From the IMG/VR virus record IMGVR_UViG_3300012921_000050, positions 1-52,651 of that record: 52,651 bases of DNA. One strand, given 5' to 3'. Of this stretch, positions 5,520-51,987 are shown piece by piece; position 1 is the stretch's first letter, and every line of letters begins with the position of its first letter. A program made the position numbers and the translations under genes. The notes beneath the pieces are model-generated. The model was not told where the DNA came from. It ran no database searches and worked only from the letters and a program-made list of their open reading frames with translations. Source of the stretch: a virus. Its lineage: Duplodnaviria; Caudoviricetes.

Positions 5520-5534
5520 GCGAACGGCGTTCGC
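5520..5534. promoter_or_regulatory. 15-bp palindrome copy 1 (GCGAACGGCGTTCGC)
   Basis: Intergenic, 23 bp upstream of the ParB start. Confidence 0.8.
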
Positions 5535-5549
5535 CGGTTGGTTGAGAAA

Positions 5550-5945
5550 TCAGGCGGCGGGTTGAGCGGGTGTCAGAAGGGCGAGCGCGGCGCGGACATG
5601 CGCCACGGTGAAGGGGCAGGGGCGGTCGGTCTTGCGCTCTTCGGCCTCGCGGTTGAAGCGCTTGAACTGCCGGCGGCGCTCCTCAATCAGACGACGCAGG
5701 CGGTTGGGCCTGACGTCGACATGCCGGGGCGAACCTCTACGGAAAGCGGCGAGGCTCTCGCGGATGCGGACCAGACGCGCGTCGTAGAAGAGGGTGATCC
5801 ACTTGCGCCCGATCTCGACCACGACGTAACAGCGGCGGCCGGAGCCGACCTTGGCGTGGTCGAGGTAGACCTCGACGTAGTCGCCGGGCTTGCAGGCGAA
5901 GTCGGCTGGGCGCTTTCCGCCGGTGTCGGATGCGCTGGCCATCAC
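5550..5945 (-). CDS. Hypothetical phage protein
   Basis: ORF in the leftward operon, coupled. Confidence 0.6.
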   Translation of the reverse strand: MMASASDTGGKRPADFACKPGDYVEVYLDHAKVGSGRRCYVVVEIGRKWITLFYDARLVRIRESLAAFRRGSPRHVDVRPNRLRRLIEERRRQFKRFNREAEERKTDRPCPFTVAHVRAALALLTPAQPAA

Positions 5946-6226
5946 GCGACCTCTCGCAGCCAGGTTGCCGCGCGCTGGGGCTCAAGCCGATGCTCGATCC
6001 GCCATGCGAGGCGCTTCGCCTTGTTCCCGTAGACCTCAAGGATGGTCGCGACCTCGATATGACCGGCCGGCTCCAGCTCCTGCGCGGCCTTGAGGTAGCG
6101 CTCGGCGATGGCCCGCAATGTCTCCGGGCTGCCGGTGCGCGCGTCGATGACGAGCTGGGCGATGGGCCGATGGAACAAGGCCTGCGCCAGCGGCGAGAGT
6201 TGCGTGACGGGGATGCGGGCGGTCAT
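5942..6226 (-). CDS. Hypothetical phage protein
   Basis: Coupled overlaps. Confidence 0.6.
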   Translation of the reverse strand: MTARIPVTQLSPLAQALFHRPIAQLVIDARTGSPETLRAIAERYLKAAQELEPAGHIEVATILEVYGNKAKRLAWRIEHRLEPQRAATWLREVA

Positions 6227-6618
6227 CAGGAGACCGGCACGGCCTTACGAGCGGCCACATAGTCGTTGCCGCTGTAGACCTCCGTGTTGGGAAGCTGCCG
6301 GCTGTCGGTCGTGGTGTAGACGTAGCCGCCGAGAGGGAAGGGCGTGCGCGTAATCCGCCCGAGGGCGAACTGCTGAAACTCCGCCAACCGGTTGAGACGG
6401 AGCCAGCCGCGATTGGCGTCAGCCTTTACGCCGTCGTCGATGATGACCGGCCGGGCTGCAAGGGCCGCCTTGATCTGCGCGACGTGCTGGACGGCGCGAC
6501 GCTGGCGCTCTAGCCGCTTCGCCTCGGTCGGTGCGGTTGCCGCGACCTTCTCGACGTAGGGCAGGGCAACCTGAAGCGCGTCATAGACGGCGAGAGGGAT
6601 GGGGTGCCGATTGTCCAT
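6226..6618 (-). CDS. Hypothetical phage protein
   Basis: Coupled overlaps. Confidence 0.6.
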   Translation of the reverse strand: MDNRHPIPLAVYDALQVALPYVEKVAATAPTEAKRLERQRRAVQHVAQIKAALAARPVIIDDGVKADANRGWLRLNRLAEFQQFALGRITRTPFPLGGYVYTTTDSRQLPNTEVYSGNDYVAARKAVPVS

Positions 6619-6621
6619 CGC

Positions 6622-6807
6622 TCAGCCCTCCAGCGCGCGCATCGCCCGGGCGATGCGTTCCTTACCCTCGTTGATCGAAGCATGGTCGATCAGGCCCGCC
6701 GCTTCGCAACGCAGAACCGCGGGATGGTGCTGAGCCTTTTCGACGGCGAGGACGGCCCGGTTGAGGACGGCGAGCGCCTGCTGCTTGTCGTGCGCCTTGA
6801 GGCTCAT
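6622..6807 (-). CDS. Hypothetical phage protein
   Basis: AGGAG RBS upstream; coupled. Confidence 0.6.
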   Translation of the reverse strand: MSLKAHDKQQALAVLNRAVLAVEKAQHHPAVLRCEAAGLIDHASINEGKERIARAMRALEG

Positions 6808-7028
6808 GGCTGTCTCCTGTTCTTCTGCCGCTGGCGGAAGGCGCGGGCGCCCGCGCGATCGAAGGGAGAGACGGCAGCGGCGTGGCGCTGCCAGCGGGGC
6901 AGGGATTCCAGCCAGCCGGCTTCCTCGAGGTCGGCGCGGCTGGCGGCGCGGTCCTCGGCGAAGCGCGCGGCGCGCTCGCGCAGGCGGCGCAGGGCAAGGA
7001 GGTGAGGGTCGCGCGTGCGGGTCGCCAT
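6804..7028 (-). CDS. Hypothetical phage protein (MATRTRDPH...)
   Basis: Start trimmed to ATG 7028; packs between neighbours. Confidence 0.5.
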   Translation of the reverse strand: MATRTRDPHLLALRRLRERAARFAEDRAASRADLEEAGWLESLPRWQRHAAAVSPFDRAGARAFRQRQKNRRQP

Positions 7029-7029
7029 C

Positions 7030-7365
7030 TCAGCGCCCCCGCCGCGAGAATTTGGCGGTGCCGGTGAGGCGGAGATCGGGGCGGCCGGGCTTCGTCCATT
7101 CCCGGGCCCGCCACTTGCGCGACTGGCGCTCAATCCGCGTCAGGTCGGCGAGGTCGGCCAGGTTGTCGAGATAGTCGGCGAAGCCGCGCAGGCGGAAGCG
7201 CAGCTCATCGGCGCAGGAGCGGAGCCGGTCGGCGTAGGCCTGCAGCGCGGAGGGCGAGCCGTGAAGGGCGCGGGCGTGAAGCCGGTAGCCGGACTGGCGG
7301 AGATAGCGGACGGCCCTAGGGCTGAGTTTGCCGAGCTGCCTGTTGCGTAACCGGACCCCTGACAT
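7030..7365 (-). CDS. First gene of the leftward (PL) operon, Arg-rich hypothetical
   Basis: AAAGGGGG RBS just downstream of PL. Confidence 0.6.
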   Translation of the reverse strand: MSGVRLRNRQLGKLSPRAVRYLRQSGYRLHARALHGSPSALQAYADRLRSCADELRFRLRGFADYLDNLADLADLTRIERQSRKWRAREWTKPGRPDLRLTGTAKFSRRGR

Positions 7366-7390
7366 GACGCCCCCTTTGTGGTCGGGGCGG

Positions 7391-7442
7391 ACTGTGCATG
7401 TAATGCACAGACGATGTCAAGCCTTTGTGCATTTAATGCGCT
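7391..7442 (-). promoter_or_regulatory. PL promoter with OL operators
   Basis: -35 TTGACA (7415-7420, minus), N18, CACAGT (7391-7396); 17-bp operators TGTGCATGTAATGCACA (7393-7409) and TGTGCATTTAATGCGCT (7426-7442). Confidence 0.85.
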
Positions 7443-7453: not shown

Positions 7454-7468
7454 GCGAACGGCGTTCGC
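7454..7468. promoter_or_regulatory. 15-bp palindrome copy 2
   Basis: GCGAACGGCGTTCGC immediately upstream of OL. Confidence 0.8.
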
Positions 7469-7471: not shown

Positions 7472-7882
7472 CTACTTGCGCAGGCCCTGCGTCCGGTGAG
7501 CGGCCGGGATCATCAGGAGGCTGAGGTCGTCACCCCTGTAGTCCCGGCCGGCGATGCTCAGGCTGCGGATCGGCGGCACGTCCCAACTCGTCATGCCGGG
7601 CCCGAGGACGCAGTGGGCCATGTGGCGGATCGGCGCGTTGAAGGCGTTGACCGCGTCGAAGCTGACGAAGACCGACACGTCGCCGTCCCTGGGAAACTCC
7701 TGCGCGCTGATGCGCCGGTAGCTTGAGGGGCTGCGCAGGGTCTCGAGGGTCAGCGCCTCGCAATAGCGGACCGGCAGGCTGTCGCGGGGAGGAACGAGCC
7801 GATCCCCGAAGACGTAAAGCGCGGCACCTCCCACGGCGGCGACGGCCGTCAGCGCGATTGCCGTCTCGGTGCGTCGCTGCAT
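7472..7882 (-). CDS. Membrane-anchored protein co-transcribed with cI (rex/sie position)
   Basis: N-terminal hydrophobic helix; C...LRSPSSY and F.A.NAFNA.IR...C motifs. Confidence 0.75.
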   Translation of the reverse strand: MQRRTETAIALTAVAAVGGAALYVFGDRLVPPRDSLPVRYCEALTLETLRSPSSYRRISAQEFPRDGDVSVFVSFDAVNAFNAPIRHMAHCVLGPGMTSWDVPPIRSLSIAGRDYRGDDLSLLMIPAAHRTQGLRK

Positions 7883-7893: not shown

Positions 7894-8466
7894 CTAGAGA
7901 CGCCGTATCCAGCGGATCGGCGCGGCCCAGCGCAGCCGCTTGTCCGTCAGCGGCTCGTGGCGCGGGTTATAGCTGATCAGGTTCCAGCGGTCCTTGCCCG
8001 ATCCCTTGCGCAGGATCTTCACCCAGAGGCAGTCGTCTTCCTCGGTCTGGCAAACGCAGTCGCGGCCGATGGCTTCCATCTCGACCTTGGTCGCCTTCTC
8101 GTAGACCAGCAGGTCGCCGTCCCGGTACGCCGGCTCCATCGAGTCGCCGCGCACGACGACGGCCGCGCCGAAACGAAACCCGGGCGGACCCTCGATCGTC
8201 TCGAAGGTGGCGTCGCGATCGAAGGGAGCGATCTTCTCGCCGGCCCCCACGGCGCCGACCAGGGTGATCTCGCCGGCATCGTCGGCCACCAGATCGACGA
8301 CCCGGCAGCCGTAGAGTTCGGCAAACCCCTCCAGCTGGCTCAGGGTCACATCGCTGCGCCGATTCTCGAGCCGCGACACCTGGCTGTGCGACAGGCCAAA
8401 GCGCTCGCCGGCCCGGCTGAGGGTCAGGTGAGCGCGGTCGCGGAAGGTCTTTAAGCGCAAGCCCAT
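7894..8466 (-). CDS. cI: CI-like repressor (HTH + S24 peptidase)
   Basis: HTH LSHSQVSRLEN; VGAG cleavage site; GDSMEP catalytic Ser; WVK catalytic Lys. Confidence 0.93.
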   Translation of the reverse strand: MGLRLKTFRDRAHLTLSRAGERFGLSHSQVSRLENRRSDVTLSQLEGFAELYGCRVVDLVADDAGEITLVGAVGAGEKIAPFDRDATFETIEGPPGFRFGAAVVVRGDSMEPAYRDGDLLVYEKATKVEMEAIGRDCVCQTEEDDCLWVKILRKGSGKDRWNLISYNPRHEPLTDKRLRWAAPIRWIRRL

Positions 8467-8474: not shown

Positions 8475-8550
8475 TTTGCATGTAGTGCACAAGCCGGGAA
8501 CGGCACCAGATGCACATTGCTTGACTTGCTATGTGCATGTAATGCACAGT
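8475..8550 (+). promoter_or_regulatory. OR operators and PR promoter
   Basis: Operators at 8475-8491, 8500-8516 (degenerate) and 8532-8548 (identical to the OL site); TTGACT (8521-8526), N18, CACAGT (8545-8550), mirroring PL. Confidence 0.85.
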
Positions 8551-10586: not shown

Positions 10587-10765
10587 GAGACGACGTCGCA
10601 GAAGCCCTCGAGGCCGCATGCCGGCCGCTCGGCAGCGACGACAGCATCGGTCAAACGCGACGCTACGAGTCCGTTGATGGGGTCCGCCACGCATTGCTCC
10701 GGCTGATCCGCGACATGCCGGACGATCTGACCATCGCCGAGCTGCGCGAGGAGCTGGAGCCGTGA
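10583..10765 (+). CDS. Hypothetical phage protein
   Basis: Coupled overlaps. Confidence 0.6.
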   Translation: MRDDVAEALEAACRPLGSDDSIGQTRRYESVDGVRHALLRLIRDMPDDLTIAELREELEP

Positions 10766-11639: not shown

Positions 11640-12148
11640 CCGGCCCCGCGCGCTGGAAGCTGCCGCCCCGCCGCTGCTCGCGCGCACTGCGCATGATCTG
11701 GCACGCCCCGGACGGCACCGACCGCGCCTTCCACATGCATATCGGCTTCGACAAGGGGCCGCTCTCCCCCGCGACCTTTCCGGGCGAGATCTTCATCACG
11801 CCCTCCACCCGGGCCGGGCGCGGCGGCAGCATGGTCCACTTCCATTCGCACGACGCGGCCGAGAGCGTGAGCCTGCTGCTGCAGCACGGCCACCAGATCG
11901 CCGACCTGCGCGAACGCTACAAGCGGGGCTCTCTCCTGCGCTGCGCCCTCGAATGGGCCTGGCTGGAATGCGACGCCATCCACGCCGACGTGCCGCCGCT
12001 GCCCGGCGACCTTCCGAAGACGGTGCTGGTCCACTGGCGGCGTCTCTGCGCCGAGGACGAGACGGCCGAGCAGGCCAAGCGCGACCCGCGCGGCGCCCTC
12101 GCGAACGCCGTTCGCCATGAGCTGCGGGCGATGGGTATCCCGGCATGA
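11636..12148 (+). CDS. TSCPD-like (class II ribonucleotide reductase C-terminal-like) domain protein
   Basis: LP.RR start, GEIFI, DAA..VSLLLQHG pattern. Confidence 0.65.
   Translation: MTGPARWKLPPRRCSRALRMIWHAPDGTDRAFHMHIGFDKGPLSPATFPGEIFITPSTRAGRGGSMVHFHSHDAAESVSLLLQHGHQIADLRERYKRGSLLRCALEWAWLECDAIHADVPPLPGDLPKTVLVHWRRLCAEDETAEQAKRDPRGALANAVRHELRAMGIPA
12101..12115. promoter_or_regulatory. 15-bp palindrome copy 3
   Basis: GCGAACGCCGTTCGC in the 3' end of a gene, 30 bp before the next start. Confidence 0.75.
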
Positions 12149-16330: not shown

Positions 16331-16614
16331 GCGAGCTGATCGTCCGCTGTCTCATCCTGTTCTGCACCCTGACGCCAAGCGGCCAGTGCGACCGAGCCGT
16401 CGCCTTCACGGAAGCCGAGACGCAGGAGATTGCCACCGCCCCGCGCACGCGCTGGACCTCGCCGGCCCACCAGGCGTGTCAGGCCCGGCTGCAGGAGCTG
16501 CGGGAGCGGGGGCCGGCCCCTTCTGCTGACGGACGGGGCGAGCGGCCGATCTGGGCGGAGCCCGTCCGCGGCCAAAGCGAACGCCGTTCGCCAGCGGTAG
16601 CGGAGGCGGAGTGA
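16327..16614 (+). CDS. Hypothetical protein
   Basis: ATGA overlap. Confidence 0.5.
   Translation: MSELIVRCLILFCTLTPSGQCDRAVAFTEAETQEIATAPRTRWTSPAHQACQARLQELRERGPAPSADGRGERPIWAEPVRGQSERRSPAVAEAE
16577..16591. promoter_or_regulatory. 15-bp palindrome copy 4
   Basis: GCGAACGCCGTTCGC near a gene end. Confidence 0.75.
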
Positions 16615-16808: not shown

Positions 16809-17578
16809 TGACCGATATCCCCATCCTCTTCTCGGGAGCGATGGTCCGCGCGCTGCTCGAAGGGCGGAAGACGCAGACGCGTCGCGTACTGTCTCGCGTG
16901 CGAACGTTCGCGATGCCGGGAAGCCGGGCCGTGACGCTGCGGGGCGAGAACCTCAAGCGCGCGCTGCTCGAAGCCGCAGACTTTCGTCACATCGAGGGAA
17001 CGGCTTGGGCCTGGACCGCCAAAGCGTTCGACCATCAGGCGCCGGCGTTCCGCACGCATTGGCACGCTCACATTCCATACGCCCTTGGCGACCGGCTCTA
17101 TGTCCGCGAAACCTGCTGGATTTGGGGGCGCTGGTTTAAGAACGGACTGACGAAGAAAACCCGCCGTCAGAAATGGCGCTTCGTCGCCGACAAGCCTCAT
17201 ACGGTCGTTCTGGACCCCAAGCATCCGCAGATCGCTCAGGCCAGCACGCCGCGCGAGCGGCGAGCCTACTGGCGCCGTAACGCGATCCACATGCCCCGCT
17301 GGGCCTCACGCCTGACGCTGGTGGTGACGGCAACCAAGATCGAGCCCTTGAACAAAATCAGCCACGACGATGCCGTGGCCGAGGGCTGCTACCGGATCGA
17401 GCCCTGCGCCGAGTATCCGAACGGCAATGCCTGGGGGCGGGCCGGCTTCGCCGTCCTATGGGATCGGCTGCATGGGAAAGGTTCATTCGATGCCCGGCCG
17501 TCACCCGAAGTCGTCGCCCTGACCTTCATCGTCCATCGCGGCAACATCGACACGCTGCCAAATGAGGTGGCGGCGTGA
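16808..17578 (+). CDS. ASCH/PUA-like phage protein
   Basis: PILFSGAMVRALLEGRKTQTRR, GDRLYVRET, IHMPRWASRLTL, DAVAEG. Confidence 0.85.
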   Translation: MTDIPILFSGAMVRALLEGRKTQTRRVLSRVRTFAMPGSRAVTLRGENLKRALLEAADFRHIEGTAWAWTAKAFDHQAPAFRTHWHAHIPYALGDRLYVRETCWIWGRWFKNGLTKKTRRQKWRFVADKPHTVVLDPKHPQIAQASTPRERRAYWRRNAIHMPRWASRLTLVVTATKIEPLNKISHDDAVAEGCYRIEPCAEYPNGNAWGRAGFAVLWDRLHGKGSFDARPSPEVVALTFIVHRGNIDTLPNEVAA

Positions 17579-22029: not shown

Positions 22030-22044
22030 GCGAACGCCGTTCGT
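22030..22044. promoter_or_regulatory. 15-bp palindrome copy 5 (one mismatch)
   Basis: GCGAACGCCGTTCGT between the terminator and cos. Confidence 0.7.
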
Positions 22045-23067: not shown

Positions 23068-25014
23068 ATGCCGCTCGACTTCAACCCGCTGGCCAACGCC
23101 GAGCGCCTGGTCCACGCGACGATCGCGGAGGTGATGGAGCCACCGCCGCCGGTCGATTTCTCGAAGTGGGCCGCCGATAACATCGTCTTCGGCACGGAAA
23201 GTTCGCGCCCTGGGCCCTACGACCCGGAGCGCCTGCCGGCGCTGAAGCGGGTTTTCGACGTGCTCAGCCCGGAGCATCCGGCGCGCGTCGTGTCGGTGAT
23301 GGGGCCGGTGCAGATCGGCAAGTCCGTCATCGCGCAGATCTTCATGGCCGCGTCGATGGATATCGACCCGTGCCAGGCGATCTACTACCACCCGACCGAC
23401 AGCAACGCGACGGAGTGGGTGCGCACCAAGTGGAAGCCGATGGTGCGCAACTCGGCGCGCCTCAAGGAGGTTTTCGGTACCGAGAAGTCCCGCGACGGCG
23501 GGCAGTCGATGATGTTCTACGAACGCCGCGACGGCCGCGGCGCCCTGCTGGTCTCGGGCTCCAACAGCCCGCAGGCCGTCCAGATGAAGTCGGCCCGCAT
23601 ACAGGTCCACGACGATGTGGCCCTCTGGGAAATGCTGTCCTCGGGCGACAGCGAGAAGCAGGCGGACGGCCGCAGCGACGATTTCCCATTCGCCAAGATT
23701 CTGAAGATCAGCAAGCCGCTGGTCGAGCCGGGTTGCCGGATCACGCGCAGCTACAAGGCGGGGACGCAGGAGCACCTGCATGTGCCGTGTCCCCATTGCG
23801 GCCTGTTTCAGGCGCTCGAATGGGAGAACATGGTGGCTTGCCTCGATCCGGAAGACCCGGACGATGCGCATTTCACCTGCACGGGGTGCAGCGGGCGGAT
23901 CGACGAAGGCGACATGCCGGCACTCAAGCCGCTGGCCGTCTTCGTTCCGCACAACCCGGTGGCGCGCGAGCCGAGCTTCTACCTCGCGCCGTTCTTTTTT
24001 CGGGCGTGGGCCGAGCTGGCCCGCGGCTGGCTGGTGGCGAAGGGCAAGCCGGCCGACGAGCAGACGTTCCTCAACGACAAGATCGGCCTGCCGTACAAGG
24101 GCGCGACCGAAAGCCCGCCTTGGGAGGAGCTGAAGGCGCGTTACGACGCGACCGGCCACAGGCTCGGCCTGGTCCCGCATGGCGGCCTGATCGTGACGGC
24201 GGGTATCGACTGCCAGAAGAGCTTCGTCGCCGCGCACATCAAGGCGTTCGGCCCCGAAGGGCGGCGCTGGACAATCGAGTATCGGCCGATCGAGGGGCAC
24301 ATTTCCGAGAGCGCGACGCGCGCCAAGCTGGACGCGCTGCTCAAGGAGACGTGGCCCGACGAATACGGGAACCAGCGTCCGCTGCAGATGCTGGCAATAG
24401 ACGGCAACGCCTGGACCGACGACGTCATGGACTGGGCGCGCACGCATCCGTGGAGCCGGGTCATCGTAACCCGCGGCCACAAGAGCGAGACGGCAGCGCC
24501 GCTGCTGCCGGTGAAGTCGGAGCGCCGCAACGACGGCAAGGCACGGCGCCAGCAGAAGCGCTTTTACAACCTCGGCGTCTCGCGCCTGAAGACGACGCTC
24601 TACACCGCGCTGGGCAAACGGGACCCACTGGAGCGCAGCTACTGCGGCTACCCGAAAGGGCTCGACGATTCGTTCTACCAGGAGCTGGCGGCAGAGCGGC
24701 GCGTGCCGAAGAAGTCGCGTGACGGCCAGGTGGAATACCGCTGGGTCAAGGATGCCGAGCAGGCGAACGAAGTCCTGGATACGGAGCTGATCGCCGAGGG
24801 TGCCGCCATCCGCTGCGGCTGGCGCGCCCTGACCGAGAAGACCGCGGCCGAAATGGAAGCGCGCCTGGTTGCCGAGGGTGAGCTGGCCCGCCAGAGCAAG
24901 GCGCCTGACCTGTTCGACCCCGCGCGTGCCGTCGCCGCGAACGCCGTTCGCCAGCCCGCGTCGGGCGAGCAACCGCAATCCGAGGCCGCGACGCTCGCGG
25001 CGCGTCTGGCTTGA
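23068..25014 (+). CDS. Terminase large subunit (GpA family)
   Basis: Walker A GPVQIGKS, VPCPHCG, AGIDCQ, NEVLD. Confidence 0.95.
   Translation: MPLDFNPLANAERLVHATIAEVMEPPPPVDFSKWAADNIVFGTESSRPGPYDPERLPALKRVFDVLSPEHPARVVSVMGPVQIGKSVIAQIFMAASMDIDPCQAIYYHPTDSNATEWVRTKWKPMVRNSARLKEVFGTEKSRDGGQSMMFYERRDGRGALLVSGSNSPQAVQMKSARIQVHDDVALWEMLSSGDSEKQADGRSDDFPFAKILKISKPLVEPGCRITRSYKAGTQEHLHVPCPHCGLFQALEWENMVACLDPEDPDDAHFTCTGCSGRIDEGDMPALKPLAVFVPHNPVAREPSFYLAPFFFRAWAELARGWLVAKGKPADEQTFLNDKIGLPYKGATESPPWEELKARYDATGHRLGLVPHGGLIVTAGIDCQKSFVAAHIKAFGPEGRRWTIEYRPIEGHISESATRAKLDALLKETWPDEYGNQRPLQMLAIDGNAWTDDVMDWARTHPWSRVIVTRGHKSETAAPLLPVKSERRNDGKARRQQKRFYNLGVSRLKTTLYTALGKRDPLERSYCGYPKGLDDSFYQELAAERRVPKKSRDGQVEYRWVKDAEQANEVLDTELIAEGAAIRCGWRALTEKTAAEMEARLVAEGELARQSKAPDLFDPARAVAANAVRQPASGEQPQSEAATLAARLA
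24937..24951. promoter_or_regulatory. 15-bp palindrome copy 6
   Basis: GCGAACGCCGTTCGC in the low-complexity 3' tail of terL. Confidence 0.75.
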
Positions 25015-28329: not shown

Positions 28330-28344
28330 GCGAACGCCGTTCGC
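28330..28344. promoter_or_regulatory. 15-bp palindrome copy 7
   Basis: Intergenic, just upstream of the decoration gene RBS. Confidence 0.8.
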
Positions 28345-31351: not shown

Positions 31352-31366
31352 GCGAACGCCGTTCGC
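31352..31366. promoter_or_regulatory. 15-bp palindrome copy 8
   Basis: Intergenic, just before an AAGGAG RBS. Confidence 0.8.
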
Positions 31367-37700: not shown

Positions 37701-37715
37701 GCGAACGGCGTTCGC
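37701..37715. promoter_or_regulatory. 15-bp palindrome copy 9
   Basis: Lies in the 48-bp gap between divergent starts 37682 and 37731. Confidence 0.8.
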
Positions 37716-41813: not shown

Positions 41814-42406
41814 CCCAGCACATCCGCCGGATTTCCGAACCCTCCGCGCTCGAGGGCCGCTACAGCACGCGGGCTCTGCTCAGCGACGGGCCTGCCGGCT
41901 CGCGCGTGCAACTGCGCGACCCCGACACGAGCGATCTGCTGGTCGAAGACGTGCCGTTCACGGCCGAGGAAATCGCCGCGGCCGAGGCGGCGGAGGCCGC
42001 CCTGGAGCCGACCTTCGAGGACCGGCGCGCGGACAAGATCGCCGCGATCGAGGCGCGCAAGTCGGCCGTGCTGGCACAGGGCGCTCCCTTCGCCGGCAAG
42101 CGCATCGCCGTCGACCCGGGCTCGCGCAGCGATCTGGGCGGCATGGGGGCCACGGCTCTCGCGGTGCTGGTCACCAGCGGCAGCGTGCCGTGGCCGGAAT
42201 CCTACGCCGAGGGCTGGATTGCCGAGGACAACACGCGCGTGCCGCTCGAGACACCGGCGGCGGGTCTGGCTCTGGGGGCCGCGGTCGGTGACTGGTACGC
42301 GCAGGTCGTGCAGCTCGCGCGCGACCTCAAGAACGCGGCGCTGGCGGCCGGGGATGACGCGGCGCTCGAGGCGATCGACGTCGAGGGCGCCGGGTGGCCC
42401 GCCTAG
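41810..42406 (+). CDS. DUF4376-like tail fibre assembly protein
   Basis: D..SR..L.G, WIAEDNT.V.L, AR.LK.A...A.D..AL.AID...GWP. Confidence 0.8.
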   Translation: MTQHIRRISEPSALEGRYSTRALLSDGPAGSRVQLRDPDTSDLLVEDVPFTAEEIAAAEAAEAALEPTFEDRRADKIAAIEARKSAVLAQGAPFAGKRIAVDPGSRSDLGGMGATALAVLVTSGSVPWPESYAEGWIAEDNTRVPLETPAAGLALGAAVGDWYAQVVQLARDLKNAALAAGDDAALEAIDVEGAGWPA

Positions 42407-42420
42407 CGAACGGCGTTCGC
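42406..42420. promoter_or_regulatory. 15-bp palindrome copy 10
   Basis: GCGAACGGCGTTCGC begins at the last base of the stop codon; boundary of tail and lysis modules. Confidence 0.8.
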
Positions 42421-45354: not shown

Positions 45355-45400
45355 GCCCCGCCGCGCCGGCTTCCACCGGTGCGGCGGGGCTCTTTCATTT
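45355..45400 (+). terminator. Rho-independent terminator
   Basis: 15-bp GC stem followed by TCTTTCATTT. Confidence 0.75.
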
Positions 45401-45402
45401 CC

Positions 45403-46849: not shown

Positions 46850-46885
46850 CTTCTTCTATAGACCAATGCCGGGGCCGCGGCCATT

Positions 46886-47650
46886 ATGGCGCTAGGGGAG
46901 GCCATGCCAGAATACAAGCGACCACCGATCACAGAGGCCGTGATCGAAGTGCGTTTCGAGAAGAAGCTCGACCGATCGCTCGTGGACAAGGCGTTCGCCA
47001 AGCTTAAGGGGGACTATCCGTTCACTGAACATATCAATGTGACGGATGTTGAGTTCAATCAGCAAGGCGCCATGCTCAGCGCCACGCTCATTCCGAGTGT
47101 CCTAGGGCATAAATACTCCAGCCTAGACCGCACGGACGTTCTGCAGATCACGACGAACTTTGTGTCTTCCTCTCGGATGCCGCCATACTCGGGCTGGGAA
47201 AGCTTCTTCGGCAGGGCTCAGGAGAATTGGACAACCTGGAAGCGGATCGGGGGCTACCACAAGGTAAAACGTATCGGGGTGAGGTTTATCAACCGGTTGG
47301 ATATCCCCGCCACCCCGGGGGGTGAAGGCATCCGGGTCGAAGACTACTTAAGGGTGTTTACCCATTGTCCGGACACGGTTTTTGAATCCACCAGGGCTTT
47401 CACACTCCAAATGCAAGGGGCGCTGGGCTCGCCGAATGACGGGTTTGGTCTGACCATCAATTCATCACTTGTACCGTCACCGCTTGTTAACCATGTGTCT
47501 GTAGTATTTGACATAGACATTTGGACAAGCGACAAGATTCCGCAATCGGACGAAGAGCTCTGGGAGCGGATCGGGCAGATCAGAGCTCACAAGAATCGCG
47601 TTTTCGAGGCGAGCGTCACTGACAAAGCCCGGGATCTGTTCGATACATGA
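46886..47650 (+). CDS. TIGR04255-like protein (start probably ATG 46904)
   Basis: YKRPPITEAVIEVRF, Y.GWE.F, RIGVRFINR, FDID, KN..FE...T..AR.LF. Confidence 0.8.
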   Translation: MALGEAMPEYKRPPITEAVIEVRFEKKLDRSLVDKAFAKLKGDYPFTEHINVTDVEFNQQGAMLSATLIPSVLGHKYSSLDRTDVLQITTNFVSSSRMPPYSGWESFFGRAQENWTTWKRIGGYHKVKRIGVRFINRLDIPATPGGEGIRVEDYLRVFTHCPDTVFESTRAFTLQMQGALGSPNDGFGLTINSSLVPSPLVNHVSVVFDIDIWTSDKIPQSDEELWERIGQIRAHKNRVFEASVTDKARDLFDT

Positions 47651-48294
47651 GCCTAATTCTGGCAGAGAGAAGCAAAGGCGCCGGCGTCGGTCCTTCCGGC
47701 CAATGGTTGCCGCCTGCTGCGCCATCAGCGGGAGCAGGAGTGGTTGCGGACGCAATCACCCAATCCCTGAAGGTCATCGCTCTGGGCCAACGCTCGCCGA
47801 CCAACGGAAGGGCGCTCCACATCGATCCGGTTCAGGCGAAGTCCACAGCGGAGCGGCTTTACGATTCTCTGGCTGAAGCTAAGCAGCTGACGGCCCAGGT
47901 CGCGATGCACCTCGACTCGGATTTGCGGCGTCGGCTGTTCGCTCAACTCGATGATCTGCTCAATCTTGATGATTGGCATGACGACGATACTCCACTCACC
48001 GGCAGCTCGTTTTCGACTTTTCTAAGGATGATTCTGTTCGTAAATCCTGATCGCCGACCGGGTCTCGGACTGTCCAATCATGGGAACTTGGTTGCAGCTT
48101 GGACTGTAGGTGGCGACAGGCTGACCATTGAGTGTCTGCCGAAGGATACGGTTCGGTGGAGTCTGTCCTGTGAAATTGACGGTGACCGGGAGCGCGCTGC
48201 AGGAGAGACACAGGTCGTGCGCTTGCCCGATGTGCTGAATTCGTTCAAGCCCCAGCGGTGGTTTGCACGTGGCAGTCACTCCGCTGCCATCTGA
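47647..48294 (+). CDS. Hypothetical protein, middle gene of the low-GC cassette
   Basis: ATGA coupling; L...DDW......P....SF.TFL and P.LGL...G...A.W...GDRL.IE.L. Confidence 0.75.
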   Translation: MSLILAERSKGAGVGPSGQWLPPAAPSAGAGVVADAITQSLKVIALGQRSPTNGRALHIDPVQAKSTAERLYDSLAEAKQLTAQVAMHLDSDLRRRLFAQLDDLLNLDDWHDDDTPLTGSSFSTFLRMILFVNPDRRPGLGLSNHGNLVAAWTVGGDRLTIECLPKDTVRWSLSCEIDGDRERAAGETQVVRLPDVLNSFKPQRWFARGSHSAAI

Positions 48295-48721
48295 TCATCA
48301 CGTTGTTCGGTATGTTCGAAAGCGACTTCTCCGCCGAACAGAAGATGGCGTTGTAGTAGGAGTCCTGCCGCAAGCCTTCGAGCACCGTGCTGAGGAGGTA
48401 TTCCTCTCGGTTACGTGGCTTGAGCACTTTTCCTCTGAGTATGAAGAAGGGCTAGCGGGCTCAGCTGCAGCAATCGGTCGACAATTGCTTGTGAAGCCGA
48501 AAGATGGTTTTACAGTCGGCTGTGTCCAGGCGATCAGCGACATCTGTCTGCGAATGTCCGCGGCTATTCGCGTTCTGCATGAGCCGCGTGATTTGAACCT
48601 GGGACACAGTGCCATTCGGCAATTGCCTCGAGACAACCTGGACTTGCTTGTGCTCCTCGCCGATGAGGCTTTCATCGACACCCGTCGATCAGATTCGTTG
48701 CCGCCAGCGGCGGCAGGGTGA
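48263..48721 (+). CDS. Putative ADP-ribosyltransferase/RES-like toxin
   Basis: VVRY...AF.....E..LSV.W ... HEP....GHS.I arrangement, reminiscent of ART-fold proteins (inference). Confidence 0.5.
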   Translation: MHVAVTPLPSDHHVVRYVRKRLLRRTEDGVVVGVLPQAFEHRAEEVFLSVTWLEHFSSEYEEGLAGSAAAIGRQLLVKPKDGFTVGCVQAISDICLRMSAAIRVLHEPRDLNLGHSAIRQLPRDNLDLLVLLADEAFIDTRRSDSLPPAAAG

Positions 48722-48751
48722 TGGCGCGGTCATAGCCATAGAGTTGCCTGC

Positions 48752-49675
48752 ATGTGCTATTCCGCGATGGTCAACGCCGACGCCAAGACGCTGGGCCGCC
48801 GGTTCGGCGCGATGCTCGAGACGGACGACATGGTCGCCCTCTACACGCGTCGGCTGGCCGATGCCTCGATCAAGATACTGAAGGCGTGGGACGCGAATTT
48901 CGAGCAACCGTCATCGCCGGCCGAGGGCACCATCCAGCACCTGATCCGCGACTACCGTACGCAGCAGGCCACGGCGTTCGAGCAGAAGCTGTTCAAGCAG
49001 AAGAAGCGCCTGGCCGATGCCGAACGGAAGCTGGCGGCCAAGCAGACGAAGGTGGCGCAGGAGAGCCGGCGAATCGCCAGCGGCAAGATCGAGCAGCTGA
49101 CCGGCCGCCTCAACGATCTAAAGCGCAGCGAGCTGAAGCCGCGCGACAGCCGCATCTTCCCGTTTGGCTACGCGCCGATCATCCTCGAGGAAGGCGGCCG
49201 CCGCATCCTGACGCTGGCGCGCTACCATTGCCGGCAGCAGGGCAAGCCGGCGGCGATCGACAGGGAGCGCGACGGACTCTACAACGCCCGCCGCGACAAC
49301 ATCGACCGGTTCTGGCGCAAGGAGTTCGGCCAGACCCACGCGCTGTGGGTGGTCAGCAGCTTCTTCGAGAACGTCCAGCGCGACGGAAAGAACGCCGTGC
49401 TGCGCTTCGACCCGACGCCCGCGCAGGACATGCTGATTGCCTGCGTCTACTCGCGCTGGACCGGACCGGCAGGCGAGACACTACTCTCCTTCGCCGCGAT
49501 CACCGACGAGCCGCCTGCCGAGGTAGCCGCCGCCGGCCACGACCGGGTGATCGTCAATCTCAAGGAGGAGAACGTGGAGTCCTGGCTCCGACCACAGGGG
49601 CGGGGCGATGCCGAGCTGCAGGCCATCCTCGGCGATCCGCAGCGGCCATACTACGAGCACGCCCTGGCGGCGTGA
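48752..49675 (+). CDS. SOS response-associated peptidase (SRAP/HMCES-like)
   Basis: N-terminal MCY, YNARRD, FFE, SFAAITDEP..EVAAAGHDR. Confidence 0.9.
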   Translation: MCYSAMVNADAKTLGRRFGAMLETDDMVALYTRRLADASIKILKAWDANFEQPSSPAEGTIQHLIRDYRTQQATAFEQKLFKQKKRLADAERKLAAKQTKVAQESRRIASGKIEQLTGRLNDLKRSELKPRDSRIFPFGYAPIILEEGGRRILTLARYHCRQQGKPAAIDRERDGLYNARRDNIDRFWRKEFGQTHALWVVSSFFENVQRDGKNAVLRFDPTPAQDMLIACVYSRWTGPAGETLLSFAAITDEPPAEVAAAGHDRVIVNLKEENVESWLRPQGRGDAELQAILGDPQRPYYEHALAA

Positions 49676-49682
49676 CGCTAGC

Positions 49683-49889
49683 TCAGCGGACTGGTCGCCG
49701 GGGGCGCTGCTCGAGATGGGCGACCTGGCGAGCGCCAAGCCAGATATCGACGCCCGACAGAACGGGTTCTGCCGCCAGCAACTCCCAACCATGCCCCTGC
49801 GCGTGCGCATCGTTGTCGCAATCGACATTTCTGCCGGGCTCGCTGATCTGGTTCTGAGAGTCGAGTTTGTAAAAGCGATAGAGCGCCAT
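49683..49889 (-). CDS. Small hypothetical protein
   Basis: GAGGA RBS; Y..Y.LD....I......C..D..A.....VDIW.G.R.V. Confidence 0.6.
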   Translation of the reverse strand: MALYRFYKLDSQNQISEPGRNVDCDNDAHAQGHGWELLAAEPVLSGVDIWLGARQVAHLEQRPRRPVR

Positions 49890-49928
49890 GCCTTCCTCAG
49901 ATTGACGCTGGTTACACCAGTACAGAGC

Positions 49929-50243
49929 TCAACCCGGTGATCTGCGCTTGAAAGCCAGACGCAGGGTGCCCGGCAGTGACGTGGACGCGAGCGTCGTGCG
50001 CACGATCTGGGTTCCGATCAGCATCTCTCCGTTCGGGGTCAACCCCATGTTGATCAGGGCGGCCTGATCGCCGGAAACACGGACGTGAATGGCGGGATAG
50101 CGGTCCAGAAGAACGGCTAGACAGCGGGTGAACATGATCCGGCGGCTCCCGAACTCACCGAAGTCCGCGGGCAGGACTTCGTGATGGGACTCGGCGCCGG
50201 TCGCCAAGGTTTCCGCGATCATCTTGTCGAACCGTTCCGGCAT
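49929..50243 (-). CDS. Hypothetical protein
   Basis: GGGGAG RBS before MPERF. Confidence 0.45.
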   Translation of the reverse strand: MPERFDKMIAETLATGAESHHEVLPADFGEFGSRRIMFTRCLAVLLDRYPAIHVRVSGDQAALINMGLTPNGEMLIGTQIVRTTLASTSLPGTLRLAFKRRSPG

Positions 50244-50361
50244 GCGCTCTCCCCTGCGCAGGATGATCCTGACGACGGTTGAAAGCAACCAGCTCGGCCG
50301 TGGGAAACGGAACCTCTGGCGATTCGGGACGCTGAATCCCTGTAAACGCGGAGGTTAAGCC

Positions 50362-50550
50362 ATGGCCGACAACCCCAAGGAACGGGGCCCGCAGGACCGG
50401 GCCCGGGTCAACATGGAGCAGGATTACGAGGTCCGCTGGTGGTCGAAGAAGTTCGGCGTCACCCCGGACAAGCTGCGCGCCGCTGTCGACGAGGTCGGCA
50501 GCTCGTCGGCCGCCGTGGCGCGCCAGCTTGGCAAGGGCGACCCGCTCTAG
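50362..50550 (+). CDS. DUF3606 family protein
   Basis: MAD....RGPQDR.RVN..QDYEVRWW..KFGV....LR.AV..VG; GGAGG RBS. Confidence 0.88.
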   Translation: MADNPKERGPQDRARVNMEQDYEVRWWSKKFGVTPDKLRAAVDEVGSSSAAVARQLGKGDPL

Positions 50551-50726
50551 TCTTGGCGGGTGCGGTCCTCGATCGGCAGGCCGTGGACGTGCTCTGCGGC
50601 CTGGCCGAGGTCGCGCATGTCGAAATCCTCGCCGCAGATCGGGCAGCGCATGAAGTGCTCGGCCTCAGACGCGACGGGTTCGTGCGGGACCCCGATATAT
50701 CTTCCCTTGGGTGTAGCCCGGCGCAT
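50547..50726 (-). CDS. Small zinc-finger-like protein
   Basis: EAEHFMRCPICGEDFDMRDLGQ..EH. Confidence 0.55.
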   Translation of the reverse strand: MRRATPKGRYIGVPHEPVASEAEHFMRCPICGEDFDMRDLGQAAEHVHGLPIEDRTRQD

Positions 50727-51002
50727 AGTGACGGCCTTCGAGATCGTGGCGGAATTCGTCGAGCTGGACGATGGCCCGGCGCAGGAAGCGGGCTTTTTCA
50801 CCCTTCAGTCCCGGGTGGGAGCGCTGGTAGGCGTCGATCGCCCTCCGGACCTGAGCCAGGCGGCCGAGGGCATTCATCCGGCTGAGGTCGTCGTAGACCA
50901 GCGGCTTGCACCGGGCGATGTCGTCCAGGAGCCGCTCGTAGTCGGTGTCGGCGCTGCCCACGTGAGGGGAACGCGGCTACGCCCGGAGTCGTTCCGACTC
51001 CC

Positions 51003-51290
51003 GTGCCTCCCGCCGAACGCGTCAAGCCGCTTTGCTACGTCAACATCTGGAAGGCCCGCGACGGTTCCTTCGAGGCCGACGCGTTCTCCATCCCCGACCA
51101 GGCACTTGAGGAGATCGGCGCGGGTTATCCGAACGTGACCTATGTCGGCACGGCCACGCTGCCCGCGCACGGCACCGAGGCGAAGTTCGAGGACTGGCGC
51201 GACGAGGCCCACCGCGTGGCGCAGGAAGCTGCCGACGAGTGGTTCGCCTATCTCGGGCTGAAGTTTCCGCGGCGGGGAACGGTGGACTAG
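51003..51290 (+). CDS. Hypothetical protein
   Basis: ORF with plausible composition; start uncertain. Confidence 0.4.
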   Translation: MPPAERVKPLCYVNIWKARDGSFEADAFSIPDQALEEIGAGYPNVTYVGTATLPAHGTEAKFEDWRDEAHRVAQEAADEWFAYLGLKFPRRGTVD

Positions 51291-51472
51291 CCTGTCGGCG
51301 GCGCCAGCGTGGCGACGGCCGCCCGGATCGCCTTCCAGCGCGCCATCCCGTCGAGGTCGCCGTAGCGGATGGCGGCATCGATCTGGGTGTCGCAGATACG
51401 CATTGCCCGCTCGACGCCGTGGTTGCCGAACAGGGCGCTGGCGGCGCGCGTGATGTCCTCGGCGTCCGTCAC
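51287..51472 (-). CDS. Small hypothetical protein
   Basis: A..L...HG..RA........A...GD..G...W..I..AV..L. Confidence 0.55.
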   Translation of the reverse strand: MTDAEDITRAASALFGNHGVERAMRICDTQIDAAIRYGDLDGMARWKAIRAAVATLAPPTG

Positions 51473-51535
51473 TTCTTCTTCGGCGTGAGCCGGCCAGTGT
51501 TCGTATCGAGCACGGCGACCGGCATCGTGCGGGGC

Positions 51536-51940
51536 TTAACGGTCACCCGTCGCGGGTTCTTCAGTGGCTCGGGCATGAGGCATCCTAGCGGCTTCCGCGG
51601 CCCGGCGCTCGCCGGGCGAGGGGCCCTTGCAGCCGCCGGCCTGCCAGCGGGCGAAGTCATTCCCCATCTTGTCGTACTCGCTGCCGTCCATCTCGGTCCT
51701 GTGGATGTCCACCGACCGGAACGGCCGGCCGGCGGCAAAGCATTTCATGCAGACCAGGCGCTTCGCCAGATCGTTGAGGCTGGTGTGGGTGGGGAAGCGT
51801 TTGGCCAGCGACGTGGCATCCAGCGGGGCGGTGTGCCCGCAGCGGTCGCACCGGCCGTGCATGAGGAACCGCTCGTCCACGGCGTGCTCGAGGAGGGCCA
51901 TCCAGCGGGCGATCACCTCGGCGGTAGGGAAAGCGACCAT
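51536..51940 (-). CDS. Zinc-ribbon protein
   Basis: CDRCGH...L.....LA.R.......L..L..RLVCMKC. Confidence 0.65.
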   Translation of the reverse strand: MVAFPTAEVIARWMALLEHAVDERFLMHGRCDRCGHTAPLDATSLAKRFPTHTSLNDLAKRLVCMKCFAAGRPFRSVDIHRTEMDGSEYDKMGNDFARWQAGGCKGPSPGERRAAEAARMPHARATEEPATGDR

Positions 51941-51972
51941 CCGGGGAGGGTAAGGGCCAGCGGCGCCCCGTG

Positions 51973-51987
51973 GCGAACGCCGTTCGC
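51973..51987. promoter_or_regulatory. 15-bp palindrome copy 11
   Basis: 1 bp from the attR arm-type repeats. Confidence 0.8.

What the first reader, a model, noticed from the sequence alone, without database searches (positions are those of the whole stretch)
5520..51987. A 15-bp palindrome GCGAAC(GCC)GTTCGC marks the whole prophage 11 times: candidate phage-wide ParB/KorB-like binding-site system
Seen in sequence: exact copies (either orientation, central GCC/GGC spacer conserved) at 5520, 7454, 12101, 16577, 24937, 28330, 31352, 37701, 42406 and 51973; a one-mismatch copy at 22030; a spacerless variant at 16900. They are 2-10 kb apart and always intergenic or in the last codons of a gene. 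Positions include upstream of the ParB gene, next to OL/PL, next to cos, the head/tail/lysis boundaries and the attR arm sites. A rough estimate at an assumed ~68% GC gives far less than one chance copy per window. The motif differs from the CI operator (TGTGCAT-N3-ATGCACA), so a second protein is implied. Established: RK2 KorB, a ParB CTPase, binds about a dozen dispersed palindromes and silences at a distance; mycobacteriophage L5 uses dispersed stoperators. Inference: these are loading sites for the phage ParB-family protein, or for the adjacent XRE, that organise, silence or time the whole phage genome.
Basis: partly seen in the sequence, partly recalled or inferred. Interest (0 to 1): 0.9.

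Follow-up and report, generated by a model that had tools for sequence, protein, structure and literature searches.

The report
Phage ParB docking-site lattice
This prophage carries eleven evenly spaced copies of one 15-base palindrome that are most likely the loading sites of its own partner-less ParB-type DNA clamp, a protein-plus-site pair shared by many very different temperate phages and not found described in the papers I could search.

Summary
The window has 10 exact copies of GCGAACG-S-CGTTCGC, one 14/15 copy and one spacerless copy, against about 0.03 expected.

The motif is a perfect 7+1+7 palindrome. Copies lie about 4.6 kb apart, more evenly than chance.

The window is a whole IMG/VR provirus record from a metagenome, so no host chromosome could be counted.

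Comparative evidence points to the phage's orphan ParB (3679-5496, minus strand):
- Among 99 viral records with at least one exact copy, 30 of 32 with 5 or more sites encode a ParB-like protein. Only 2 of 37 single-copy records do.
- ParB is the only protein family shared by all 14 motif-selected whole genomes, which are otherwise very diverse.
- A site lies in or just before parB in 12 of 16 genomes, against 2.3 expected.
- One ParB relative carries 13 genome-wide copies of a symmetrically changed palindrome, GCGCACG-S-CGTGCGC.
- Five ParB-less relatives and 1.4 Mb of alphaproteobacterial replicons hold no exact copy.

Binding and function remain untested. The closest known systems are KorB/OB, Noc/NBS and BisD/bisS.

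This scan has already noted the same kind of array on other DNA.

The parts
3679..5496 (-). Orphan ParB-family gene (605 aa): N-terminal CTPase-type domain (GERRHAA, ENLQRED), ParB HTH, long unassigned middle and C-terminal part, lysine/alanine-rich KKPAAKKA tail
   Evidence: Pfam ParB_N E 2e-10 and HTH_ParB E 4e-13. Sequence. NCBIfam TIGR00180 scores 81.5 bits against a 58.45 cut-off, and no named subfamily cut-off is reached. PDB: Spo0J 3e-23, Noc 1e-18, KorB 1e-7. No ParA (PF13614) in the window. No [LFI]G[KR]G[LFI] ParA-binding motif.
5520..5534 (.). Palindrome copy 1, 23 nt upstream of the parB start codon and 15 nt after the stop of the gene before it
7454..7468 (.). Palindrome copy 2, 3 nt after the stop of 7472-7882 (-) and 12 nt from the CI-operator-like pair at 7393-7442
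12101..12115 (.). Palindrome copy 3, 29 nt upstream of the DUF5131 gene start (12145); in frame (A-N-A-V-R) in an unconfirmed ORF 11279-12148
16577..16591 (.). Palindrome copy 4, 22 nt upstream of a small ORF starting at ATG 16614
16900..16911 (.). Spacerless 12-bp variant GCGAACGTTCGC inside 16631-17578 (+); status unknown
   Evidence: 1 match, 0.02 expected
22030..22044 (.). 14/15 copy (last base T) in the 410-nt gap before the small terminase gene
24937..24951 (.). Palindrome copy in the 3' end of the large terminase gene, in frame A-N-A-V-R, about 70 nt before a gpW-like small ORF. A copy lies within about 25 nt of the homologous place in 4 of 5 relatives checked by hand.
28330..28344 (.). 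Palindrome copy between the head protease/scaffold gene and the decoration gene, 22 nt before the ATG at 28367
31352..31366 (.). Palindrome copy 17 nt upstream of a 56-codon ORF (ATG 31384)
37701..37715 (.). Palindrome copy between the tape-measure gene (ends 37439) and the next tail gene (probable start ATG 37731)
42406..42420 (.). Palindrome copy whose first base is the last base of the TAG stop of 41810-42406, 30 nt before the ATG at 42451
51973..51987 (.). Palindrome copy 32 nt upstream of the start of 51536-51940 (-), near the right end of the record
3265..3675 (-).
   Evidence: Pfam HTH_3 E 2.5e-14. Homologue found in 1 of 7 motif-rich genomes. In four relatives (G002, G022, G031, G040) an XRE/Cro-like stretch sits at the ParB N-terminus by reading of the sequence; Pfam supports this only weakly and only for G040 (HTH_26 E 0.0014).

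Best explanation
The 15-bp palindromes are parS-like loading sites for the prophage's own orphan ParB-family protein (3679-5496, minus strand).

Proposed mechanism, by analogy with ParB, KorB, Noc and BisD:
- A ParB dimer recognises the palindrome through its HTH.
- It binds CTP through the conserved GERR and ENLQR motifs and closes into a clamp.
- The clamp slides away from the site.

Because the sites lie about every 4.6 kb, in gaps and in genes alike, clamps loaded at the lattice would reach the whole phage chromosome rather than a few promoters. One site sits 23 nt before parB, so the protein probably also regulates itself.

The gene lies in the leftward operon downstream of CI-operator-like sites. 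I therefore expect it to be made early after infection or induction.

What the coating does is open. My best guess is long-range control of phage transcription or DNA accessibility, possibly with a second HTH partner. Organisation or protection of replicating phage DNA is about equally likely.

Shown: the sites, their even spacing, the ParB motifs, and the ParB-site association across phages. Inferred: binding, the CTP clamp, spreading, timing and role.
For: 1. Sites are real and far beyond chance: 11 against 0.03 expected.

2. Co-occurrence in 99 IMG/VR records that hold at least one exact copy (counts; ParB profile A1):
- 5 or more sites: ParB in 30 of 32 records.
- 2-4 sites: ParB in 8 of 30.
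- 1 site: ParB in 2 of 37.
- Records at least 90% complete with 5 or more sites: 14 of 14 have ParB.
- The earlier single-sequence search, which was independent of A1, gave 27 of 31.

3. The ParB-like ORF is the only family present in 8 of 8 genomes and in 17 of 17. The next families reach 14 of 17. These phages are otherwise remote from the window, with TerL only 23-26% identical.

4. A site lies in or within 150 nt upstream of the 5' part of parB in 12 of 16 genomes, against 2.3 expected. In six genomes (G001, G007, G028, G037, G041 at -20 nt and G006 at -32 nt from the GERR box) it lies inside the gene and encodes A-N-G-V-R just before that box.

5. Co-variation:
- G051 (ParB about 31-37% identical) carries 13 genome-wide GCGCACG-S-CGTGCGC sites, changed symmetrically in both half-sites.
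- G028 carries hybrid GCGAACG-S-CGTGCGC sites.
- Other ParB relatives carry other palindromes of 15 to 25 bp.

6. ParB-less relatives with TerL 38-47% identical hold 0 exact sites in 5 of 5 records, including 750-kb and 653-kb alphaproteobacterial replicons.

7. CTPase motif residues are invariant in 12 ParBs: G79, R82, N121 and R124.

8. Spacing is even: mean CV 0.52 against 0.86 for random placement, and 0 of 5000 simulations reach it.

9. The palindrome is perfect through positions 7 and 9, which cannot pair in a hairpin. This is read from the sequence.
Against: - No binding test of any kind was possible; everything is correlation.
- The host chromosome could not be counted, so a host-wide motif is not formally excluded.
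The single-copy 'controls' may come from other host groups.
- Eleven of the ParB-positive records supplied rows of profile A1 and match it by construction.
- Two records with 5 or more sites showed no ParB: G012 (49% complete) and G070 (64% complete).
- Of 80 loci chosen by ParB homology, only 16 showed any palindrome at 3 or more copies within the 21 kb or less that I saw. Many phage ParB-like proteins therefore have no obvious array.
- Small or fast-evolving DNA-binding proteins under 60-90 aa would escape my clustering.
- The candidate specificity residue is only a lead. R163 is Ser in G051, but the subgroup with Lys there still has GCGAAC sites.
Confidence: 0.75

Rival explanations
1. The palindrome is read by a host-encoded factor, or is a host-wide repeat such as a REP-like element or host regulator site. 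Phages of that host group would have accumulated it, and ParB would merely be common in those phages.
For: The identical 15-mer occurs in very diverse phages with GC from 0.61 to 0.71. A conserved host factor would explain that simply. No host chromosome could be examined.
Against: - 1.4 Mb of Azospirillum and Paracoccus replicons hold 0 exact copies.
- In an arbitrary sample of 120 metagenome stretches (684 kb) with the motif, 115 hold one copy. The 5 with two or more all resemble the motif-bearing phages, and only 3-4 of 23 stretches of 10 kb or more hold two or more.
- No complete motif-rich genome lacks ParB (0 of 14).
- The motif changes in step with ParB divergence in G051 and G028.
- The low-GC moron zone of the window (46-50 kb) has no copy.
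Confidence: 0.08
2. Another phage-encoded DNA-binding protein reads the sites, for example the adjacent XRE protein, the accessory wHTH/XRE domains fused to many of these ParBs, or a small undetected protein. ParB would be only linked to it.
For: Most of these ParBs carry or neighbour a second HTH: XRE next to parB in the window; an XRE/Cro-like stretch read at the N-terminus of G002, G022, G031 and G040, with weak Pfam support for G040 only; a MarR-like wHTH N-terminus in several others at sub-cut-off Pfam scores; and ROS/MucR at the C-terminus in three. Short proteins escape my clustering.
Against: The accessory domains are of unrelated folds, yet the motif is the same. The window's XRE has a homologue in 1 of 7 genomes. 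Only the ParB N-domain plus ParB-HTH is common to all genomes.
Confidence: 0.1
3. The element acts at the RNA level: a 6-bp hairpin with a 3-nt loop placed before start codons, serving translation, processing or termination. This would resemble the start-associated sequences of some mycobacteriophages (that comparison is recalled, not from a call).
For: In the window six sites lie 17-30 nt upstream of start codons. The RNA can form a 6-bp stem.
Against: - Fold energies are unexceptional against shuffles in 3 of 5 tested contexts (z -0.16 to -0.62), while two contexts reach z about -2.
- No T-run follows any copy.
- Stem sequences are invariant, with no compensatory variety.
- Palindromy includes positions 7 and 9, which cannot pair.
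- In other genomes 79 of 172 sites lie deep inside genes.
- The association with ParB would be unexplained.
Confidence: 0.05

Closest known systems
KorB and its OB operators on IncP-1 plasmid RK2
   Same: A ParB-family CTPase clamp loads at a palindromic operator and slides to act at a distance, together with a small DNA-binding partner, KorA (PMC11790492: abstract and Main section read).
   Different: - KorB acts on a plasmid, has an IncC/ParA partner, and its sites are tied to promoters (proximal, or 45 to over 1,000 bp distal).
- Here the replicon is an integrating phage with no ParA. Sites sit inside long co-directional operons and, in relatives, deep in genes, and they are evenly spaced.
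- The window's ParB gets no KorB-domain hit, and KorB is only E 1e-7 in the PDB search against 3e-23 for Spo0J.
- The protein is 605 aa; KorB is much shorter (length recalled).
Noc and its NBS sites (Bacillus subtilis)
   Same: A ParA-less ParB paralogue that reads many dispersed palindromes over a whole replicon. It is the best-scoring NCBIfam model (TIGR04285, E 5e-28) and second in the PDB search.
   Different: The score of 98 bits is far below the Noc cut-off of 315, so the window's ParB is not Noc. Noc is chromosomal and works through membrane tethering (recalled). Nothing here suggests that.
BisD and bisS on ICEclc (Pseudomonas putida)
   Same: An orphan long ParB-like protein of an integrated mobile element. 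It loads at an odd palindrome (11+1+11), hydrolyses CTP when bisS DNA is present, spreads 50 kb or more, and controls element genes with a partner, BisC (PMC12409273: passages read).
   Different: BisD has only two bisS sites, 2 kb apart, and acts as an activator of transfer competence. Here there are 8-17 evenly spaced sites per phage. No sequence comparison with BisD was possible, because I held no BisD sequence.
17-bp dyad repeats of Cluster O mycobacteriophages (Corndog)
   Same: An invariant dyad-symmetric repeat (7+3+7, 34 copies) is spread through a phage genome, between and within genes and mostly away from promoters. Its binder is unknown, and those phages also encode a ParB-like domain protein (PMC4351075: passages read).
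   Different: The host phylum, sequence and density (about 1 per 2 kb) all differ. The authors did not link the repeat to ParB. These phages are not obviously temperate.
Stoperators of Cluster A mycobacteriophages (L5 gp71)
   Same: Many dispersed copies of one short site over a temperate phage genome are read by a phage protein. This is recalled, and mentioned in PMC4351075.
   Different: Stoperators are asymmetric, oriented with transcription, and bound by the immunity repressor. Here the site is a perfect palindrome, and a separate CI-operator motif exists.

Membership tests
ParB/RepB/Spo0J superfamily (ParB-CTPase clamps) | N-terminal ParB domain with GxxR (GERR) and ENLQR nucleotide-binding motifs | tested here: met
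   Pfam PF02195 E 2e-10. TIGR00180 scores 81.5 bits against a 58.45 cut-off. GERRHAA and ENLQRED are in the sequence. G79, R82, N121 and R124 are invariant in 12 relatives.
ParB/RepB/Spo0J superfamily (ParB-CTPase clamps) | Central ParB-type HTH DNA-binding domain | tested here: met
   PF17762 E 4e-13, residues 125-205.
ParB/RepB/Spo0J superfamily (ParB-CTPase clamps) | Cognate palindromic site in or beside its own gene | tested here: met
   A site lies 23 nt upstream of the start. The same holds in 12 of 16 genomes against 2.3 expected.
ParB/RepB/Spo0J superfamily (ParB-CTPase clamps) | CTP binding and hydrolysis, site-stimulated clamp closure, sliding | not testable with these tools
   Needs biochemistry.
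ParB/RepB/Spo0J superfamily (ParB-CTPase clamps) | C-terminal dimerisation domain | tested here: inconclusive
   No Pfam hit beyond residue 205. The C-terminal part is poorly conserved. No structure was predicted.
Partition ParABS systems | Adjacent ParA ATPase and an N-terminal ParA-interaction motif [LFI]G[KR]G[LFI] | tested here: not met
   PF13614 is absent from the window and from 15 of 17 genomes. The motif is absent in 13 of 13 ParBs. The motif definition comes from PMC12704722.
KorB (IncP-1) | KorB-specific domain and close sequence kinship | tested here: not met
   No PF08535 hit for the window's protein. KorB chains score E 1e-7 to 5e-5, weaker than Spo0J and Noc.
KorB (IncP-1) | About a dozen dispersed palindromic operators on one replicon | tested here: met
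   11 sites on 52.6 kb. This is a functional likeness only.
Noc | Score above the TIGR04285 cut-off | tested here: not met
   98.2 bits against 315.
PRTRC-system ParB | Score above the TIGR03734 cut-off | tested here: not met
   78.8 bits against 278.6, N-terminal third only. The Atlas structural match has TM 0.46-0.50.
Stoperator-type repressor sites | Asymmetric site oriented with transcription and bound by the immunity repressor | tested here: not met
   The site is a perfect palindrome. A separate CI-operator-like motif exists.
Host REP-like or host regulator site | Comparable density in the host chromosome | not testable with these tools
   No host genome is held.

The most novel reading that the evidence does not exclude
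A large, undescribed class of orphan phage ParB clamps uses an evenly spaced lattice of private loading sites to coat the entire viral chromosome soon after infection or induction. This would mark phage DNA as 'self' and so shield it, counter host silencing, or organise it for replication and packaging. The counter-silencing idea rests on some members being fused to a ROS/MucR DNA-binding domain; MucR's role as a silencer in Alphaproteobacteria is recalled. It would be a role for ParB-CTPases distinct from partition, nucleoid occlusion and promoter-directed silencing.
Probability: 0.3. Interest if true: 0.85.

Novelty: new variant of a known kind. Interest (0 to 1): 0.68.

Why it matters
About 1% of ParB homologues in a recent survey are prophage-encoded, and the orphan variants on mobile elements are given no function in the passages I read (PMC12704722).

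This finding gives one such protein a concrete, conserved DNA target. It also gives a specific prediction: a one-base symmetric change of the site travels with a diverged ParB. The class therefore becomes directly testable by EMSA, ChIP-seq and CTPase assays.

The finding also offers a candidate explanation for dispersed dyad repeats in phage genomes that have stood unexplained since 2015 (Cluster O, PMC4351075).

If the lattice does load sliding clamps over a whole viral chromosome, it would be a new example of long-range, genome-wide DNA management in a virus.

Tried and rejected
Host chromosome test, not possible:
- The window is the whole record, an IMG/VR provirus.

Searches that found nothing useful:
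- No tRNA in the window.
- blastn of 17575-21065 against phages: no match.
- No named phage has a close ParB homologue; the best is 30-35% identity over the N-terminal 40%. The plasmid search was saturated by ordinary partition ParBs.
- The search for related loci failed with alignment A1, which had no conserved stretch. With the single protein it found nothing. It worked with the six-row A2.
- The Pfam PF02195 scan through the genome search missed the divergent ParBs of G028 and G037. I replaced it with local tblastn and profile A1.

RNA-level checks:
- The hairpin reading was tested by folding and was mostly not exceptional.
- The look-up of sequencing runs: no RNA holder listed. The one DNA run may be the source of the window.

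Rows dropped:
- One search gave 118 stretches, which I count by hand as 102 distinct contigs.
- I searched 50, chosen by me and mostly the longer ones, not at random. I searched 49 more.
- L022 and L043 (4-kb contigs) were left out to fit the limit. L111 was 'not held'.
- One search used centre S and centre N, so the counts are not strictly alike.
- G052 and G053 were left out of the spacing and placement statistics because their palindromes differ.
- In one search, G040 was dropped because the script picked the wrong ORF.

Literature:
- Searched the motif string, ParB/prophage/parS/CTP, phage ParB/palindromic repeats and orphan ParB/phage.
- None of the listed papers describes phage-wide ParB site arrays.
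- Supplements were closed. Dataset S1 and SI Fig. S3 of PMC12704722 may list this clade.

Not done: no structure prediction or complex prediction.

Full report
**1. The observation**

One search finds the exact 15-mer at ten places: 5520, 7454, 12101, 16577, 24937, 28330, 31352, 37701, 42406 and 51973. It finds one 14/15 copy at 22030. Dinucleotide-preserving shuffles expect 0.03 matches at this stringency, and none of 100 reached the observed number. The spacerless 12-mer at 16900 is also there, with 0.02 expected.

The motif is a perfect odd palindrome, GCGAACG-S-CGTTCGC. GC is 0.679.

By my crude GC3-based gene calls and reading of the contexts:
- Nine sites are intergenic, and six lie 17-30 nt before a start codon.
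- One is in the last 26 codons of the large terminase gene.
- One (37701) is in an ORF extension that probably precedes the real start. The PHROG match begins at residue 151, and an in-frame ATG follows at 37731.

**2. What the window is**

The window is a complete IMG/VR record, classed as a provirus and estimated 79% complete. Its only sequencing-run holder is a biocrust metagenome. No host genome is therefore available.

The gene order is lambda-like:
- a CI-like S24 repressor (7894-8466, minus strand);
- a leftward operon holding parB, an XRE gene and a truncated integrase-like ORF at the left edge;
- a rightward replication region;
- small and large terminase, portal, protease, decoration, major head, tape measure and tail genes;
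- a moron zone of lower GC.

The nearest named relatives of the large terminase are prophages or phage-plasmids of Azospirillum, Rhizobium, Paracoccus and Sinorhizobium, at 38-47% identity. Three relatives' ParB proteins end in a ROS/MucR domain (E about 1e-30). I recall that family as essentially alphaproteobacterial. I therefore infer an alphaproteobacterial host.

**3. The motif is not private to this phage**

I count these by hand as 102 contigs.

Searching 99 of those records whole shows two populations. Many records have a single copy, as chance would give in so large a collection. Thirty-two records have 5 to 17 copies per 25-95 kb.

I fetched 14 of the motif-rich records whole. They are very diverse. 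The window's large terminase is only 23-26% identical to theirs, two use other terminase and portal families, and GC runs from 0.61 to 0.71.

**4. What goes with the motif**

An all-against-all comparison of six-frame ORFs finds exactly one family in every genome: the ParB-like ORF. It is in 8 of 8 genomes and 17 of 17. Three of the 17 were chosen by ParB homology, so the fair figure is 14 of 14. The next families, terminase, portal and primase, reach 14 of 17.

Over the 99 records, a ParB profile (A1) gives these matches:

| Sites per record | Records | With ParB |
|---|---|---|
| 5 or more | 32 | 30 |
| 2-4 | 30 | 8 |
| 1 | 37 | 2 |

The two exceptions with 5 or more sites are 49% and 64% complete. 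All 14 records that are at least 90% complete and have 5 or more sites have ParB. None of the four complete records with one or two sites does.

Eleven positive records supplied rows of A1. The earlier single-sequence search, which does not have that flaw, gave 27 of 31. It missed only divergent ParBs that local searches then found.

The window's XRE protein has a homologue in only 1 of 7 genomes.

**5. A site at parB itself**

In the window a site lies 23 nt before the parB start. Across 16 genomes a site lies in the 5' part of parB, or within 150 nt upstream, in 12 cases. Chance would give 2.3. In one subgroup the site lies inside the gene and encodes A-N-G-V-R just before the GERR box. A site in or beside the gene is a classic ParB trait (recalled for B. 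subtilis spo0J).

**6. Co-variation**

I collected 80 viral loci by ParB homology alone. Those with the nearest ParBs carry the same motif. G051, whose ParB is 31-37% identical, carries 13 copies of GCGCACG-S-CGTGCGC across its 32.8 kb. This is the same architecture with a symmetric one-base change in each half-site. G028 carries hybrid sites with one half of each kind.

Other relatives carry other odd palindromes. G053 has a 15-mer four times. G052 has a 25-mer 13 times, but clustered in two regions.

In the six nearest ParBs, Arg163 in the presumed recognition helix is invariant, and G051 has Ser there. The subgroup with Lys at that place still has GCGAAC sites, so this is a lead only.

Against over-reading: only 16 of the 80 loci showed any palindrome at three or more copies in the 21 kb or less that I saw, and four of these are low-complexity GC strings.

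**7. Controls against a host or compositional origin**

- Five ParB-less relatives hold no exact copy, and only one copy with a mismatch. They include a 750-kb Azospirillum replicon and a 653-kb Paracoccus replicon.
The five with more all resemble the motif-bearing phages, one of them with ParB on the stretch.
- Within the window, the 9.5-kb gap without a site covers the low-GC moron zone.

None of this replaces a count in the true host chromosome.

**8. Geometry**

Mean spacing is 2.2-6.3 kb per genome and 4.6 kb in the window. The coefficient of variation averages 0.52, against 0.86 for random placement, and none of 5000 simulations reached that.

Sites are moderately enriched at gene boundaries: 93 of 172 are intergenic or within 75 nt of a gene end, against 57 expected. 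Still, 79 of 172 lie deep in genes. In the window most sites sit inside long co-directional operons, for example between the protease and decoration genes or between the tape measure and tail genes. Separate promoters are not expected there (inference from gene order).

This fits sites chosen for coverage better than promoter-linked operators.

**9. The protein**

The 605-aa product has a ParB N-domain with intact GERRHAA and ENLQRED motifs, and a ParB HTH. It passes the general ParB domain model but no named subfamily. It is nearest in PDB sequence to Spo0J and Noc, then KorB.

It has no ParA partner and no ParA-binding motif, and it ends in a KKPAAKKA-type basic tail.

Relatives add unrelated extra DNA-binding parts: a MarR-like winged helix or an XRE/Cro-like stretch at the N-terminus (the latter read from sequence, with weak Pfam support in G040 only), and ROS/MucR at the C-terminus. 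Only the ParB core is common to all.

**10. Reading**

The best explanation is a parS-like lattice for an orphan ParB clamp. The RNA-hairpin rival is weak:
- fold energies are mostly ordinary;
- no T-runs follow the copies;
- stems are invariant;
- palindromy extends through bases that cannot pair.

What the coating does is open. parB lies downstream of CI-operator-like sites in the leftward operon. I therefore expect early expression after infection or induction, with either long-range transcription control (as for KorB and BisD) or organisation and protection of phage DNA.

**11. Known and new**

Established precedents are:
- KorB/OB (PMC11790492: abstract and Main section read);
- BisD/bisS (PMC12409273: passages read);
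- Noc/NBS (recalled, and mentioned in PMC12704722).

Cluster O mycobacteriophages have an unexplained 17-bp dyad repeat and a ParB-like gene that the authors did not connect (PMC4351075: passages read).

A 2025 survey counts about 1% of ParB homologues as prophage-encoded and describes orphan variants on mobile elements without assigning a function in the passages I read (PMC12704722). My four literature searches found no description of phage-wide ParB site arrays. Supplements were closed.

This scan has noted the same kind of array on other DNA, including a near-identical 15-mer, GCGAACCSGGTTCGC. Those notes are unchecked leads and were not used as evidence.

Noticed in passing
L161:15222-17762 (+), L157:1083-2990 (+), L166:5392-7935 (-): Three ParB-like proteins of motif-rich phages (G037, G028, G041) end in a ROS/MucR DNA-binding domain (Pfam E 4e-30 to 3e-33). 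I have not seen a ParB-MucR fusion described. It hints at an interplay with MucR-type silencing in Alphaproteobacteria.
   Followed up: partly
ParB N-termini in L140, L147, L176, L174, L157, L161, L166; and L145, L169, L163 and G022: Most relatives carry an extra N-terminal stretch that looks like a DNA-binding domain: a MarR-like winged helix with an 'RDxSNxRK' signature (weak, sub-cut-off Pfam hits in some; none in L147), or an XRE/Cro-like HTH read from sequence (weak Pfam support in L163 only). The window instead has a separate XRE gene next to parB.
   Followed up: partly
window 7393-7409, 7426-7442, 8475-8491, 8532-8548: A second palindrome, TGTGCAT-N3-ATGCACA, occurs in two pairs flanking the CI-like gene region (4 matches against 0.05 expected). 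These are likely OL- and OR-type operators.
   Followed up: partly
G051 (L263-L264), whole record: A provirus with 13 genome-wide copies of GCGCACG-S-CGTGCGC and a ParB 31-37% identical to the window's. It is a natural specificity variant.
   Followed up: partly
G052 (L265-L267), 27135-33863 and 41227-42584: Thirteen copies of a 25-bp palindrome, GGGGACAGATTT-N-AAATCTGTCCCC, are clustered in two regions of a 54-kb phage with a short (296-codon ORF) ParB-like gene. This is a regional rather than genome-wide layout, reminiscent of bisS.
   Followed up: no
L213 (viral contig, ParB-homology locus): ATTTCC-NN-GGAAAT occurs three times near a phage ParB-like gene. From memory this resembles the Noc-binding-site half-sites.
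   Followed up: no
window 12101, 24937, 37701; parB genes of G001, G006, G007, G028, G037, G041: Where these copies lie in coding sequence, each is read in the same frame, as A-N-(A/G)-V-R. Because the 15-mer is a palindrome, this frame gives the same peptide on either strand.
   Followed up: partly
window 10762-12148: The DNA methyltransferase ORF 10762-11478 matches only positions 193-369 of a 458-position PHROG profile. It overlaps a following ORF, 11279-12148, that has no family hit. This may be a split or frameshifted gene.
   Followed up: no
window 1-1746 (-): The integrase-like ORF runs off the left edge of the record and gets only a weak Phage_integrase hit (E 0.002, below cut-off). 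The provirus boundary seems to cut it.
   Followed up: no
window 42421-51972: The longest site-free stretch (9.5 kb) coincides with the lower-GC zone (0.62 at 46-50 kb). This is consistent with recently acquired cargo that has not gained sites.
   Followed up: no
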